This document shows, one piece after another, positions 9,785 to 42,364 of a DNA stretch of 64,000 bases (positions within the stretch are counted from its first letter, which is position 1; every line of letters starts with the position of its first letter). The notes beneath the pieces were generated by a model that saw nothing but the letters and a program-made list of their open reading frames with translations, did no database searches and was not told the DNA's origin. The stretch spans positions 89,255 to 153,254 of the forward strand of contig DUEV01000006.1 in assembly GCA_011170375.1 (NCBI GenBank), in the 5' to 3' direction. The stretch comes from Dehalococcoidia bacterium (lineage in GTDB: Bacteria; Chloroflexota; Dehalococcoidia; Dehalococcoidales; Fen-1064). The position numbers and the translations under genes were made by a program.

Positions 9785-9857
9785 GGCAGCGTAGCTCAGT
9801 TGGTAGAGCAGAGGACTCATAAGCCTTTGGTCGTGGGTTCGAATCCCTCCGCTGCCA
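9785..9857 (+). tRNA. tRNA-Met: tRNA with CAT anticodon (elongator Met, or Ile2 if lysidine-modified); CCA not encoded
   Basis: Hand fold: GGCAGCG/CGCTGCC acceptor, GCTC/GAGC D-stem, CTCATAA anticodon loop, TTCGAAT T-loop, 73 nt. G1:C72 argues against an initiator. My fold has two non-Watson-Crick pairs (31:39 A.G, 50:64 T.T). Confidence 0.75.
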
Positions 9858-9884
9858 GCTTTTGTTTCCTGATGTTCCCGCCTG

Positions 9885-9893
9885 ATTATAGCA
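9885..9893 (-). promoter_or_regulatory. Minus-strand extended -10 box (TGCTATAAT) in the conserved tail downstream of the tRNA
   Basis: Plus strand ATTATAGCA reads TGCTATAAT on the minus strand. The same box sits in front of nrpR and the crotonase gene. Confidence 0.4.
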
Positions 9894-10611
9894 TATCGCT
9901 GGCTGGTTGAACGAGAAGCGAACACAACGGAAGTGATAACCAGGTATCTGTATGTTCAAGATTTTACAGGCTTCTACCGATAACTTGCATCATCGACAGT
10001 CACCCGGAAAAATTCACCGTCTGACTATTTAAATCATTGTCTCTGAGAATAGATGTTTACTTTATACACGGTAAACTCATAAATAATATCATGCAGTAAT
10101 GTTAGAAAAATCGTTTTTCTACTTCGGTGTGATAGCAAGTCGCATAGACCAATAACTTGTTGAGTTGAAGTTTACGTACTACTCATGCTAGACCACGCTC
10201 GGATTCTTGGTAGAATACTTACGGTATGCCGCATAGATCTATTTATCCTTAATCTCTAGTCCTTTCACCTTTCCCTAACAATTAGTCATAATGTGAAATT
10301 TCAAGAAATAGCTAAGTTATCAATCCCTGTCAGGCAGTTAGACTCAAGACTTTTTCGTTTGATTTCAGCATAGGACAATAATCGCTAGCGTTATATTTGA
10401 AATCCTAGCTAGATTATCTCCTCTTTCCAGAATTGGAGACCGTAATCAGTTTTTAAGGCTGCCTTACATCTTTACACCCACCATTTTAAAATGAGGTTTT
10501 GTATTTTAGGGAATTAATTACATCCCTTTTCTCTCGACAGGTAGCGCATTTCTCAGGCCGCCTAAAAGTGCGTTAAAGGCACCAAGATATATTCCGGACT
10601 CTAACGAATGC

Positions 10612-10640
10612 TTGAATATCATTAGGTAGAAGCGTAATAT
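10612..10640 (+). promoter_or_regulatory. Candidate promoter for the AOR gene
   Basis: TTGAAT (10612-10617), 17-nt spacer, TAATAT (10635-10640). The predicted leader contains stem GTCAGTAA (10657-10664) / TTACTGAC (10698-10705) with inner ATTAG/CTAAT. Confidence 0.45.
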
Positions 10641-10728
10641 TACCGTTACAGCTTGTGTCAGTAATTATTAGCTGATTGAGGCAACCCTAATTTACGGTTA
10701 CTGACAAGCAAGACAAGGAGGGTGAATT

Positions 10729-40861: not shown

Positions 40862-40945
40862 TCCTCCCCTCCGAATATTATCAGATACATTGATTGAGGC
40901 AGTAGGTGGAATTCGACGTGCTACTCACAACTTTCGTAACAGGCA

Positions 40946-40954
40946 TGCTATAAT
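40946..40954 (+). promoter_or_regulatory. Extended -10 promoter box TGCTATAAT upstream of nrpR
   Basis: GCATGCTATAAT at 40943-40954, 38 nt before the TTG start of nrpR. Confidence 0.5.
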
Positions 40955-40991
40955 AACCTGAAGATTATCCAAAGAAACAAGGAAGCTTCTG

Positions 40992-41987
40992 TTGGTACAA
41001 GGTTCTAGCTCCGAAACAGAGATAAAGATAATAGCCATTCTTAAGGTCTTGAGTGAGTCCTCTGAGCCACTCGGGTCAATTACTATTGCCCGTAAACTGG
41101 AGCAGGAGGGAGTTTTCCTGAGTGAGAGAGCAATCAGATATCACCTGAGAATAACAGATGAGCGTGGTTTTACCCAGCCGGGCGGTCGGGATGGCAGAAT
41201 GATTACTCCAGAAGGGCGGCAAGAGGTTAAGGACGCACTGGCACCGGAGCAGCTTGGTTTTGTGCGTGATAAGCTCGAGATGTTAGCTTTCCAAACCACA
41301 TTCGACCCACAAAAGAGAACCGGCCTGTTATCTGTAAACACCTCCTTAATTGACAAGAATAATTTCAAAAAGGCATTATCAGCCATGAGGGATGCATTCA
41401 AGGCCGGAATTTGTGTCAGCGACTTAGTGGCCACCGCGTCTGAAGGAGAAAGGCTTGGTTCGGTAATCGTGCCCAGTGGGAAAATCGGCCTGGCTACCGT
41501 CTGCAGCGTGGTGATATATGGGGTACTTCTGAAGGCAGGTGTGCCTACAGAATACAGGTTTGGAGGATTGCTCGAGGTTAGAAATTCAAAACCACGGCGC
41601 TTTGTAGCCATAATTGACTATCAGGGTACATCCCTCGACCCCTCTGAACAATTCATACGTGGCAACATGACGAGCGTTAATGAAGTTGCAAGGACAGGGA
41701 ATGGTAAGGTATTAGGTGTGTTCCGTACTCTGCCAGCACCGGCGAAAGAAATCGTCGAGGAGAAAATCGCTTTGCTCAAGGAAGCCGGCATCGGTGGGGT
41801 CTATGCTCTGGGCAATACCAGCGAGTCGATTTGTCGTGTTCCAGTGACTTTAAATCGGTTTGGTATCGTTCAACTCGGTGGTCTTAATCCAGTGGCGGCA
41901 GCCGTTGAGGCGGGAATCGAGATAGAAAACATAGCTGAGAGCGGGCTAATTGATTTTCAGCAGCTTCAACCTGTTTGGCAGATTTAG
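40992..41987 (+). CDS. nrpR: NrpR-like nitrogen repressor (winged HTH plus one NrpR/DUF128 domain)
   Basis: 331 aa. N-terminus IKIIAILKVL..SEPLGSITIARKLEQEGVFLSERAIRYHLRITDERGF..GRMITPEG resembles methanogen NrpR as I remember it. Single-domain length. Confidence 0.7.
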   Translation: MVQGSSSETEIKIIAILKVLSESSEPLGSITIARKLEQEGVFLSERAIRYHLRITDERGFTQPGGRDGRMITPEGRQEVKDALAPEQLGFVRDKLEMLAFQTTFDPQKRTGLLSVNTSLIDKNNFKKALSAMRDAFKAGICVSDLVATASEGERLGSVIVPSGKIGLATVCSVVIYGVLLKAGVPTEYRFGGLLEVRNSKPRRFVAIIDYQGTSLDPSEQFIRGNMTSVNEVARTGNGKVLGVFRTLPAPAKEIVEEKIALLKEAGIGGVYALGNTSESICRVPVTLNRFGIVQLGGLNPVAAAVEAGIEIENIAESGLIDFQQLQPVWQI

Positions 41988-42279
41988 CCCGAATATCCTG
42001 TCCTATCATGGATTTCGCTCTATTAGAAAGCGACCGAGCTTTATGCGGTAGAATTGCTCGGTTCCCGACGTTACTTCCATCGCCCTTCGCGACTGAAGAA
42101 AAAGTGTGAAATACTCGTGCTCAGTCTGCTTTCGGCAACGGTGATTCCCTAGGAAATGGAGAAGCTTCTTGGAAGGAGACCGACGGCCATGCTTTACTTG
42201 GGAAATGTACGACTTACTGAATTTGCTTAACTCGGCGATTTACGTTACGCTTAAGGAGTTAAGCAACCGTAGCGGGTGT

Positions 42280-42364
42280 GAGACCTCATAAGCCTTTGGT
42301 CGTGGGTTCGAATCCCCCCGCTGCCACTTTTTATTTCCCCACACTACCACAAAATTATAGCATA
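42280..42364 (+). repeat. Repeat copy C1: 3' 47 nt of tRNA-Met plus conserved tail
   Basis: 42280-42326 matches tRNA positions 27-73 at 44/47. TTATAGCATA at 42355-42364, 28 nt after the tRNA end, the same spacing as in the real gene. Confidence 0.85.

What the first reader, a model, noticed from the sequence alone, without database searches (positions are those of the whole stretch)
9785..42326. Intact tRNA-Met and its 3' half in direct orientation bracket 32.5 kb (attL/attR-like geometry)
Seen: the full tRNA (9785-9857) and the 47-nt 3' half (42280-42326) are direct repeats 32,469 nt apart. Both are followed by the same ~40-nt tail. A 9-bp inverted repeat (GCTTAACTC 42225-42233 / GAGTTAAGC 42256-42264) sits just upstream of the second copy.

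Established: integration of elements into the 3' half of a tRNA gene yields exactly this picture, an intact gene on one side and an anticodon-loop-to-3'-end duplicate on the other.

The bracketed DNA is compositionally different by eye. Hand counts of the first 60 nt give 25/60 G+C for the AOR gene and 30/60 for carB, against 33/60 for uvrC outside the bracket. These are tiny samples, not a real calculation.

The puzzle is the content. Besides an accessory catabolic module, the bracket holds the cell's apparent core nitrogen and nucleotide genes (purF, gltS, glnA, amt, carAB, nadE), many of archaeal flavour. That would make it a domesticated or very old island.

My hand fold of the tRNA shows two non-Watson-Crick pairs (31:39, 50:64). 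C1 carries a different single mismatch in the same anticodon stem. Both are one change away from a perfectly paired GAGGC/GCCTT stem, so a hybrid or decaying tRNA is possible.
Basis: partly seen in the sequence, partly recalled or inferred. Interest (0 to 1): 0.7.

Follow-up and report, generated by a model that had tools for sequence, protein, structure and literature searches.

The report
Decayed genomic island in tRNA-Met
A 32.5-kb block carrying this uncultured Dehalococcoidales bacterium's nitrogen-assimilation genes is a real, now immobilised genomic island that a tyrosine integrase inserted into a tRNA-Met gene, an ordinary mechanism with unusual cargo at a locus that repeatedly captures DNA.

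Summary
An intact tRNA-Met(CAT) (9785-9857) and a 42-nt copy of its anticodon-loop-to-3' end (42285-42326, one mismatch) are direct repeats 32,469 nt apart.

Three related Dehalococcoidales genomes keep the same left flank and tRNA-Met. In them the tRNA is followed directly by the ortholog of gene 42411-43319. So 9858-42284 is an insertion with empty sites in relatives.

Both junctions recur in 3-4 independent metagenome assemblies, so this is not a misassembly. Island genes have GC3 0.52, against 0.61-0.68 in the flanks.

Beside the partial tRNA copy, on the minus strand (42009-42275), lies the broken 5' end of an integrase gene. Its intact homologs are ~315 aa: HTH, SAM-like domain, Xer-like tyrosine-recombinase catalytic domain. 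At least 60 of 80 metagenome loci show the same [integrase][tRNA-Met 3' half] arrangement. Two loci carry complete 2.5- and 7.7-kb elements.

The nitrogen cluster is typical Dehalococcoidia DNA (83-95% aa to other lineages) found elsewhere at other chromosomal sites.

Four more tRNA-3'-end copies lie downstream to 51.1 kb. They and their counterparts in relatives delimit variable 1-5-gene cassettes.

The tRNA itself is not decaying. This is a new member of a known kind.

The parts
9785..9857 (+). Intact tRNA-Met(CAT) gene; acts as attL. The att core is 9816-9857.
   Evidence: ARAGORN. Rfam tRNA 68.5 bits. Identical to the L005 tRNA over positions 14-73, all that was compared.
9858..9903 (+). 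Tail after attL, the left end of the island (P' arm). Contains the clade-specific motif GCCTGATTATAGCATATCG.
   Evidence: The same tail type follows other copies in L004, L027 and L006. The motif is absent from 79 copies in other lineages.
9858..42284 (.). Inserted island: one repeat period of 32,469 bp, including one core copy.
   Evidence: Absent between tRNA-Met and the 42411 ortholog in L004, L005 and L027. GC3 0.52 against 0.61-0.68 in the flanks. No internal att-like copies.
9904..10728 (.). AT-rich non-coding left end of the island.
   Evidence: No ORF of 66 aa or more, and no Pfam hit in six frames. Matches only same-species contigs.
10729..21148 (.). Accessory module: aldehyde:ferredoxin oxidoreductase, SDR, GCAxxG protein, livKHMGF-type ABC transporter, corrinoid protein, URO-D-type methyltransferase.
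   Evidence: Pfam. Liv permeases 67-71% identical lie near a 75%-identical intact integrase in L085/L086.
21832..41987 (.). Nitrogen / glutamine-amidotransferase cluster: purF(-), ferredoxin, NAD(P)H oxidoreductase, split archaeal-type GltS (3 genes), OmpR-type regulator, asnB, amt, glnB (PII), glnA, nadE, carA, carB, NrpR.
   Evidence: Pfam. Syntenic clusters at other chromosomal sites in L067, L068, L069, L160 and L162, at 83-95% aa identity for most genes (65-79% for four of the ten genes shared with L160).
42009..42275 (-). Integrase pseudogene: the N-terminal ~90 codons (HTH_3 plus the start of the SAM-like domain). It has an in-frame stop at 42240-42242 and is truncated about 20-40 nt from the NrpR stop codon.
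   Evidence: Translation. 74 homologs, best 75% identity, E 4e-27. Longer homologs carry HTH_3, Phage_int_SAM and Phage_integrase domains. DNA is 72-77% identical to the 5' ends of intact ~315-aa integrase genes.
42285..42326 (+). Partial tRNA-Met copy from the anticodon loop to the 3' end; acts as attR. One mismatch (T64C).
42327..42410 (+). Native downstream tail (B' arm) leading into gene 42411-43319.
   Evidence: Near-identical to the sequence directly after the intact tRNA-Met in L027 and L004.
43323..43342 (+). Decayed tRNA-3'-end copy just after the stop codon of gene 42411-43319.
   Evidence: 3 mismatches in 20. nhmmer E 4e-6. A copy sits at the same place in L005 and L027.
44192..44249 (+). 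tRNA-3'-end copy (T-loop onward) plus tail. It has a conserved upstream arm, GCAGCTTCTCGCTTTC...TAG.
   Evidence: 0 mismatches in 20. The same arm occurs in L004 and L005.
49247..49310 (+). tRNA-3'-end copy plus a degenerate tail.
   Evidence: 2 mismatches in 20. nhmmer E 2e-12.
51039..51098 (+). Most distal, degenerate copy plus tail. It overlaps the start codon and ribosome-binding site of the minus-strand enoyl-CoA hydratase gene. This is where GC returns to flank level.
   Evidence: 4 mismatches in 20 plus TGATTATAGCATG at the right offset. nhmmer E 4.5e-11. Conserved in L004 and L027.
42411..51058 (.). Hotspot cassettes between the copies: a 302-aa protein of unknown function; DUF169; amidohydrolase, 539-aa membrane protein, PLP enzyme, PKD fragment and pilin-like ORF; alpha/beta hydrolase and enoyl-CoA hydratase.
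   Evidence: Pfam. Presence and order differ among L004, L005 and L027. GC3 0.485.

Best explanation
Bases 9858-42284 are an integrated genomic island. It belongs to a family of elements that target the anticodon-loop-to-3'-end segment of tRNA-Met in Dehalococcoidia.

How integration works. The family's integrase is about 315 aa: an N-terminal HTH_3, a SAM-like core-binding domain and a Xer-like tyrosine-recombinase catalytic domain. Its gene sits immediately next to the element's own copy of the tRNA 3' half (attP) and is read away from it. Recombination between attP and the chromosomal tRNA-Met (attB) placed the element inside the gene. The island supplied a replacement 3' half, so the tRNA stays intact (attL, 9785-9857). 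The original 3' half, with its native downstream tail, was displaced 32,469 bp to the right (attR, 42285-42326 plus tail), next to the integrase gene.

What happened afterwards. The integrase gene lost everything beyond about codon 90 and acquired a stop codon. The island can no longer move by itself and is fixed in the sampled population.

Shown by the data:
- the repeats;
- the empty sites in relatives;
- orthology of the attR tail to the native tail;
- the integrase remnant and its family;
- complete elements with identical geometry;
- the foreign composition.

Inferred:
- that the whole 32 kb arrived in one integration event from a lower-GC (~0.50) Dehalococcoidia donor;
- the position of crossover in the anticodon loop;
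- that the downstream copies are scars of earlier integrations at the same tRNA.
For: 1. Repeats and tRNA.

2. Empty sites. In L004 (complete chromosome CP070842.1), L005 and L027, the order HAD hydrolase, tRNA-Met, 42411 ortholog is contiguous. Flank proteins are 68-95% identical.

3. The C1 tail equals the native tRNA tail of L027 and L004.

4. Not an assembly artefact. The left junction appears in 3 independent assemblies and the right junction in 4, all 100% identical.

5. Integrase remnant. DNA-level homology to the 5' ends of intact integrase genes stops about 40 nt from NrpR.

6. Family. The metagenome scan found 291 relatives. Intact ORFs are 314-319 aa. At least 60 of 80 loci have a tRNA-Met half directly upstream on the opposite strand, with no full tRNA there.

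7. Complete elements. L102 reads half, integrase, cargo, intact tRNA-Met over 7.7 kb. L154 is 2.5 kb.

8. Integrase identity. PF00589 E 1.7e-24. Best NCBIfam XerA/XerC/XerD, best PDB match XerD.

9. Composition. N clusters of other lineages have GC of about 0.50.
Against: - No intact integrase, excisionase, replication or transfer gene is present anywhere in the window. Mobility is historical, not demonstrated.
- The integrase breakpoint lies directly against the nitrogen cluster. This could mean the cluster entered in a second, separate rearrangement.
- The tail after attL carries a motif (TGATTATAGCATA) otherwise seen only in this clade's own tRNA-Met locus. That is odd for a P' arm from a distant donor.
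- I could not establish where, or whether, island-free relatives encode their own nitrogen cluster.
Confidence: 0.82

Rival explanations
1. Two-step origin. A small integrase element, possibly already carrying the AOR/liv/corrinoid module, integrated at tRNA-Met. A later recombination or translocation then placed the purF-to-NrpR nitrogen cluster inside it and destroyed the integrase gene. The cluster could have been the cell's own copy.
For: - The integrase homology ends about 40 nt from the NrpR stop codon.
- Related elements are small, 2.5-7.7 kb.
- An element with a 75%-identical integrase carries liv permeases 67-71% identical to the island's, but no nitrogen genes.
- None of the other family loci carries an N cluster as cargo downstream of the integrase. 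The only N-cluster homolog found, a 53%-identical NrpR in L136, lies outside the element, upstream of the integrase.
Against: - No att-like copy or other boundary separates the two halves.
- Both halves have the same low GC3, 0.40-0.59, unlike the flanks. A native nitrogen cluster should look like the flanks.
- The tetranucleotide correlation between the two halves is 0.80, against 0.38-0.72 to the flanks.
Confidence: 0.2
2. The block is ancestral at this site. The relatives lost it by excision or deletion between the two direct repeats.
For: - Direct repeats of 42 nt permit precise loss.
- The genes are core functions.
- The same-species contig L076 begins inside a tRNA-type copy with no mismatch to the tRNA gene, directly before gene 42411. 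It could be an island-free allele.
Against: - This requires loss in L005, L004 and L027, which span 84-95% identity to the window on the marker protein.
- The island is compositionally foreign.
- Losing the only glnA/gltS/carAB copy should be lethal unless other copies exist.
Confidence: 0.08
3. The tRNA-Met locus is an integron-like cassette platform. The tRNA-3'-end copies with their conserved ~45-nt tail are recombination sites used in trans by a Xer-like integrase encoded elsewhere. This shuffles 1-5-gene cassettes, and the 32-kb block is simply the largest cassette.
For: - Six same-strand copies in the window, and 4-6 in each relative, separate single genes or small gene groups.
- Cassette presence and order differ between genomes. 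The PLP enzyme lies before DUF169 in L027 and after it in the window.
- No integrase lies in any of these arrays.
- Arrays of copies also lie beside the integrase in other lineages, for example L104, L088 and L085.
- The best NCBIfam model for the integrase is the 'XerA / integron integrase' equivalog, although below its cutoff.
Against: - Gene orientation within cassettes is mixed and several cassettes hold multiple genes, unlike integrons.
- Shared cassettes are about as diverged as the flanks (85-93% aa). This fits vertical descent with occasional rearrangement, not active exchange.
- Copies are decayed to different degrees, as expected of scars.
- No trans-acting integrase was identified.
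Confidence: 0.15
4. Assembly or binning chimera created at the repeated tRNA sequence.
For: The window comes from a metagenome-assembled genome, and repeats of 40-85 nt can mis-join contigs.
Against: Both junctions are reproduced, 100% identical, in independent assemblies from different samples: ERZ27275860, ERZ27275891 and JGI 3300028897 on the left; ERZ27275859, ERZ27275891, JGI 3300027901 and 3300028897 on the right.
Confidence: 0.02

Closest known systems
tRNA-inserted genomic islands and integrative elements with tyrosine integrases that cross over in the anticodon loop (the general scheme reviewed by Williams, Nucleic Acids Res 2002, recalled from memory)
   Same: - Intact tRNA at one end, with a direct repeat from the anticodon loop to the 3' end at the other.
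- The integrase gene abuts the att site.
- The element restores the tRNA.
- Foreign base composition.
- Empty site in relatives.
   Different: - The integrase here is only an approximately 90-codon pseudogene.
- The family integrase is short (~315 aa) and Xer-like, with an extra N-terminal HTH_3. It reaches no curated NCBIfam cutoff.
- The cargo is a near-complete nitrogen-assimilation and amidotransferase gene set, not virulence, resistance or phage genes.
Dehalococcoides ssrA genomic islands (McMurdie et al. 2011, PMC3146451)
   Same: - Same bacterial class.
- Tandem low-GC islands downstream of a single small-RNA gene, each bounded by a direct repeat of its 3' end.
- Conservation extends about 85 bp around the repeats.
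- Some islands lack any integration module. That paper interprets them as cis-mobilisable or fixed, acquired by accretion.
   Different: - The target is tRNA-Met, not ssrA.
- The recombinase is a tyrosine (Xer-like) enzyme, not the CcrB-like serine recombinase DsiB.
- No six-gene integration module.
- The cargo is nitrogen metabolism and miscellaneous small cassettes, not reductive dehalogenases.
Integrons (IntI, attI, attC cassette arrays)
   Same: - An array of short gene units separated by a repeated recombination-site-like sequence.
- The family integrase is distantly related to the XerA / integron-integrase group.
   Different: - No integrase at the array.
- Mixed gene orientation and multi-gene units.
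- The repeats are tRNA 3' ends, not folded attC sites.
- No Pc promoter was identified.
Large metabolic islands at tRNA genes, such as the Mesorhizobium symbiosis island at tRNA-Phe (recalled from memory)
   Same: A tRNA-integrated element carrying a coherent block of nitrogen-related metabolism with its own regulator.
   Different: - Fifteen-fold smaller.
- No conjugation genes.
- The integrase is destroyed.
- The cargo is housekeeping assimilation (glnA, gltS, amt, carAB), not nitrogen fixation or nodulation.

Membership tests
tRNA-integrated genomic island (tyrosine-integrase type) | Intact tRNA gene at one boundary and a direct repeat of its 3' part at the other | tested here: met
   9816-9857 against 42285-42326: 41 of 42 identical, same strand.
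tRNA-integrated genomic island (tyrosine-integrase type) | Site empty in related genomes, with conserved flanks on both sides | tested here: met
   L004, L005 and L027 have tRNA-Met followed at about 84 nt by the 42411 ortholog. The tail is orthologous.
tRNA-integrated genomic island (tyrosine-integrase type) | Integrase gene next to an att site | tested here: met
   A pseudogene only: 42009-42275(-), homologous to the N-termini of about 315-aa HTH/SAM/PF00589 integrases. It is not functional.
tRNA-integrated genomic island (tyrosine-integrase type) | Base composition and codon usage distinct from the host flanks | tested here: met
   GC3 0.52 against 0.68 and 0.61, p=7e-7. Tetranucleotide r 0.38-0.72 to the flanks.
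tRNA-integrated genomic island (tyrosine-integrase type) | Excision to a circular form / regenerated attB | not testable with these tools
   This needs read-level data. L076 may be an island-free allele, but its contig starts inside the repeat.
Tyrosine recombinase (Pfam PF00589) for the window copy itself | Catalytic domain with the R-H-R-Y residues | tested here: not met
   The window retains only about 90 N-terminal codons. Pfam gives only a weak HTH_3 hit. The catalytic domain is present in homologs.
Dehalococcoides ssrA-GI family | Integration at ssrA with a 20-bp ssrA repeat, and a DsiB serine recombinase module | tested here: not met
   The target is tRNA-Met. No tmRNA was found in the window. 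No serine recombinase was found by Pfam.
Integron | intI next to attI, with promoterless single-gene cassettes in one orientation separated by attC sites | tested here: not met
   No integrase ORF in the window or in the arrays of relatives. Cassettes have mixed orientation and up to 5 genes.
Prophage | Phage structural, packaging or lysis genes | tested here: not met
   All 26 island ORFs are metabolic, transport or regulatory. The integrase family gave no confirmed hit in IMG/VR.
Integrative conjugative or mobilisable element | Relaxase, oriT, or type IV secretion / coupling protein | tested here: not met
   No such Pfam domains in any ORF of 100 aa or more between 7.2 and 53 kb.

The most novel reading that the evidence does not exclude
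In this Dehalococcoidales clade, the stretch downstream of tRNA-Met acts as an integron-like gene-capture platform. tRNA-3'-end mimics with a conserved, clade-specific ~45-nt tail serve as recombination sites for a Xer-like integrase supplied in trans. Single genes, and even a complete nitrogen-assimilation regulon, can then be inserted, reordered and exchanged between genomes.
Probability: 0.15. Interest if true: 0.7.

Novelty: new member of a known kind. Interest (0 to 1): 0.42.

Why it matters
Housekeeping nitrogen assimilation genes can sit on horizontally acquired DNA in streamlined, uncultured Dehalococcoidales. The set here includes glnA, archaeal-type gltS, amt/PII, carAB, purF, asnB and nadE, together with their repressor NrpR. 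MAG-based metabolic and phylogenetic inferences for these genes therefore cannot be assumed to be vertical.

The work also defines an apparently undescribed, abundant integrase family specific for tRNA-Met: 291 relatives were detected in the metagenome scan. It identifies a second small-RNA-gene hotspot in this class, analogous to the ssrA plasticity region of Dehalococcoides.

The mechanism itself is textbook.

Tried and rejected
1. Integrase search. I ran Pfam on every ORF of 100 aa or more from 7.2 to 63.8 kb, and on the arrays in relatives. None was found.

2. Six-frame Pfam scan of the 871-nt non-coding left end. Nothing was found.

3. The 302-aa gene next to the tRNA in all relatives as a hidden recombinase. 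It has no Pfam or NCBIfam hit and the sequence does not look integrase-like. I did not pursue it by structure prediction.

4. The tail motif TGATTATAGCATA as a promoter. The consensus scan found no sigma-70-like site at any tail, and the total promoter count equals the shuffle mean.

5. Rfam on the whole window. Only the tRNA was found.

6. Prophage origin. The integrase family is not confirmed in IMG/VR.

7. Locating the nitrogen cluster of the island-free relative CP070842.1.
   - That genome is in the protein database.
   - No NrpR from it appears among the 120 best hits, all at 79% identity or more.
   - The glnA search was uninformative, because 90% clustering hides members.
   - The result is weak and inconclusive.

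8. Contig look-ups for the closest integrase homologs. These gave only 1.5-2.2-kb contigs. They did confirm the adjacent tRNA half.

9. The 9-bp inverted repeat as a functional site. It is not distinguishable from chance.
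Full report
**1. What is in the sequence**

ARAGORN finds a single tRNA in the window, tRNA-Met(CAT) at 9785-9857 on the + strand. Rfam scores it 68.5 bits against a gathering score of 29.

A second copy of its 3' part lies at 42280-42326.
- From the anticodon loop (CTCATAA) onward, 32 nt are identical.
- One T/C difference follows at tRNA position 64, then 9 identical nt to the discriminator base.
- The start-to-start spacing is 32,469 nt.
- A 19-mer from this segment occurs exactly twice, against 0.02 expected.

The tails after the two copies resemble each other only in a T-rich start and in TTATAGCATA at the same offset.

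It is one of 20 such repeats in the window, against 7.5 in shuffles.

- AOR, an SDR, a GCAxxG protein, a livKHMGF-type transporter, a corrinoid protein and a methyltransferase.
- purF, ferredoxin, an NAD(P)H oxidoreductase, a three-gene archaeal-type GltS and an OmpR-type regulator.
- asnB, amt, PII, glnA, nadE, carA, carB and NrpR.

**2. Composition, computed properly**

| Region | GC |
|---|---|
| 1-9784 (left flank) | 0.555 |
| 9858-21148 (island, left half) | 0.472 |
| 21149-42279 (island, right half) | 0.498 |
| 42327-51100 (hotspot) | 0.468 |
| 51101-64000 (right flank) | 0.537 |

Per-gene GC3 is 0.52+-0.04 for the 26 island genes. It is 0.68 for the left flank and 0.61 for the right (Mann-Whitney p=7e-7).

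Tetranucleotide profiles of the two island halves correlate with each other and with the 42.3-51.1 kb stretch at r about 0.8. Their correlation with the flanks is r 0.38-0.72.

**3. Organism and synteny**

The flank gene 7981-8856(-) is a rubrerythrin-thioesterase fusion. It identifies the source as an uncultured Dehalococcoidales bacterium (Chloroflexota). Cluster look-ups tie the window to a GenBank MAG with a 170,549-bp contig.

Four species-level relatives keep the left flank and the tRNA-Met: L005 (95% on this protein), L004 (the complete chromosome CP070842.1, 92%), L006 (87%) and L027 (84%).

In L004, L005 and L027 the tRNA is followed directly, about 84 nt later, by the ortholog of window gene 42411-43319 (77-80% aa). 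None of the 26 island genes has an ortholog in these loci. The only matches are 26-29% ABC-ATPase paralog hits in L005.

The sequence after the window's partial copy is CTTTTTATTTCCCCACACTACCACAAAATTATAGCATAACACCAGACTTCGAGA. It is almost identical to the sequence after the intact tRNA of L027 and L004. The partial copy and its tail are therefore the displaced original 3' half and downstream arm. The 32.4 kb is an insertion.

**4. Not an assembly artefact**

The left junction (HAD hydrolase, tRNA, AOR) occurs in three independent assemblies. The right junction (carB, NrpR, partial tRNA, gene 42411) occurs in four. All match the window at 100% identity across the non-coding ends.

**5. The recombinase**

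No ORF in the window has an integrase domain.

The 290 nt between NrpR and the partial tRNA encode a broken reading frame on the minus strand. It reads ...LRLLNSLSVT*IAELSKFSKSYISQVKHGRRSPSKKLLHFLGNHRCRKQTEHEYFTLFLQSRRAMEVTSGTEQFYRIKLGRFLIERNP**.

An exhaustive HMMER search of 1.8 billion representatives gave 74 homologs. The best is 75% identical with E 4e-27. The longer homologs carry HTH_3, a phage-integrase SAM-like domain and the PF00589 catalytic domain.

The predicted N-termini of several homologs run through reverse-complemented tRNA sequence ('WQRVGSNRRPRAYE', 'GWIRTND'). The contigs of the three closest homologs each have a tRNA-Met 3' half, beginning at CTCATAAGCC, abutting the integrase start on the opposite strand. 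None has a complete tRNA there.

A metagenome scan with the family alignment found 291 relatives. In the 80 loci kept:
- Intact genes are 314-319 aa.
- At least 60 loci show the same half-tRNA directly upstream.
- L102 is a complete 7.7-kb element: half site, integrase, cargo, intact tRNA-Met. L154 is a complete 2.5-kb element.

An intact member (L085) matches PF00589 at E 1.7e-24. It is closest to the XerA/XerC/XerD models, below their cutoffs, and to the XerD structure 1a0p.

Cargo in other members is diverse: STAND NTPase, SMC-like ATPase, PAPS-reductase-like protein, DNA methylase, GH130, a metallo-beta-lactamase, and liv permeases 67-71% identical to the island's.

The family is not found in IMG/VR.

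In the window, DNA homology to intact integrase genes stops about 40 nt from the NrpR stop codon. About 225 codons have been deleted, and an in-frame stop lies at 42240-42242.

**6. Mechanism**

Site-specific recombination occurred between the element's attP and the chromosomal tRNA-Met. The attP is a tRNA-Met half lying next to the integrase gene.
- It inserted the element.
- It regenerated an intact tRNA from the chromosomal 5' part and the element's 3' part.
- It displaced the native 3' half.

This is the standard scheme for tRNA-targeting tyrosine integrases. The sublocation terminology is recalled from Williams 2002, not re-read.

The later loss of the integrase fixed the island.

The tRNA is not a decaying hybrid.
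- It is identical to the tRNA of island-free L005 over positions 14-73, all that was compared.
- The A31-G39 mismatch is shared by L004, L005, L006, L027, L102 and L154. The U50-U64 mismatch is shared by all of these except L154, where the pair is U-A.

**7. Where the cargo came from**

The nitrogen cluster is a recurrent Dehalococcoidia arrangement that sits at different chromosomal sites.
- L160 has ferredoxin, oxidoreductase, GltS x3, amt, PII, glnA and NrpR. Six of the ten shared genes are 83-95% aa identical. The other four are 65-79%.
- L067 has the regulator, amt, PII, glnA, nadE, carAB and NrpR. Seven are 82-91% aa identical and the regulator is 74%.
- L069 has nadE, carA, pdxT, purF, pyrG, purLQ and NrpR beside the ribosomal-protein cluster.
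- None of these loci has a tRNA-Met repeat.

These loci have GC of about 0.50, like the island and unlike the window's flanks.

This favours acquisition from a lower-GC member of the same class. The 'archaeal flavour' is a property of the class, not of this transfer.

I could not determine whether the source genome has a second copy, or where the island-free relatives keep theirs.

Because the integrase breakpoint abuts NrpR, a two-step history remains possible. In that history a small element arrived first and the nitrogen cluster was inserted later. The uniform composition of the island and the absence of internal att-like copies argue against it.

**8. The wider locus**

The window has four more same-strand copies of the tRNA 3' end: 43323, 44192, 49247 and 51039. 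Most are followed by a ~45-nt tail ending in TGATTATAGCATA.

L004, L005 and L027 have 4-6 copies each. The copies separate one- to five-gene units:

| Genome | Units in the array |
|---|---|
| Window | 302-aa unknown; DUF169; amidohydrolase, 539-aa protein, PLP enzyme, PKD fragment, pilin-like ORF; hydrolase and enoyl-CoA hydratase |
| Relatives (additional or alternative units) | flavodoxin, PK_C-like protein, methyltransferase, PadR, 2TM protein |

Presence and order of these units differ between genomes. No integrase is present in any of the arrays.

Some copies start at the anticodon loop, as expected for this integrase family. Others start in the T-loop and share a different upstream arm. 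This suggests at least two kinds of past integration.

GC returns to flank level at the last copy.

The picture parallels the tandem ssrA islands of Dehalococcoides, some of which also lack integration modules (PMC3146451).

The tail motif is absent from 79 copies in other lineages and is not a recognisable promoter. Its conservation is unexplained.

**9. Verdict**

It is a decayed tRNA-Met genomic island at a serial-integration hotspot, which makes it a new member of a well-known kind.

Points of interest:
- the housekeeping nitrogen cargo;
- the abundant and apparently undescribed HTH/Xer-like integrase family specific for tRNA-Met;
- the integrase-free cassette array.

An integron-like, trans-acting capture system is not excluded, but the data do not favour it.

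Noticed in passing
window 42280-51100; L004 4500-9020; L005 4490-9025; L027 4100-9040: tRNA-Met is followed by an array of 4-6 same-strand copies of its 3' end. The copies delimit 1-5-gene, low-GC cassettes. Cassette presence and order differ between four related genomes, and no integrase lies nearby.
   Followed up: partly
window 9883-9895, 42350-42361, 44237-44249, 51086-51098: A tail motif, (TG)ATTATAGCATA, lies about 45 nt after most copies and after the native tRNA in relatives. It is absent from all 79 tRNA-Met-end copies examined in other lineages. No promoter consensus was detected. Its function is unknown.
   Followed up: partly
window 51039-51058: The most distal, degenerate copy overlaps the start codon and Shine-Dalgarno sequence of the minus-strand enoyl-CoA hydratase gene. 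The reverse complement of the tRNA acceptor / T-arm end contains GGAGG. This overlap is conserved in L004 and L027.
   Followed up: no
window 2814-3599: An APH-type kinase gene with low GC (0.457; GC3 0.50) sits between uvrC and the GTPase gene. In L004, L027 and L057 those two genes are directly adjacent. It is a separate single-gene insertion.
   Followed up: partly
window 21832-41987; L069 1-11035: Nearly every enzyme in the cluster uses glutamine or ammonia: purF, GltS, asnB, nadE and carA, plus pyrG, purL/Q and pdxT in L069. The cluster ends with the repressor NrpR. It looks like a conserved 'glutamine-user' supercluster in Dehalococcoidia, with lineage-specific membership and location.
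   Followed up: partly
L076 1-113: A same-species contig with an identical 42411 protein starts inside a tRNA-type copy that matches the tRNA gene exactly (CCCTCC), where the window's attR copy has CCCCCC. This could be an island-free allele or just a strain variant. The contig is cut at the repeat.
   Followed up: no
L100 8090-10200: In a more distant relative (flank proteins 57-70% identical), a member of the same integrase family with its tRNA-Met half sits next to the HAD hydrolase gene, in the opposite orientation. The neighbourhood is therefore used in other lineages too. The contig ends in a 28-nt tandem repeat.
   Followed up: no
window 48750-49125 and 48159-48563: A short prepilin-type (N_methyl) ORF followed by out-of-frame continuation, and a 134-aa PKD-domain fragment on the other strand. 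These are probably gene remnants inside the third cassette.
   Followed up: no
window 42411-43319 and 45325-46944: Two conserved proteins, of 302 aa and 539 aa, have no Pfam or NCBIfam match. The 539-aa sequence is visibly hydrophobic over its N-terminal third, so it may be a membrane protein. The 302-aa gene is the first gene after tRNA-Met in all island-free relatives.
   Followed up: partly
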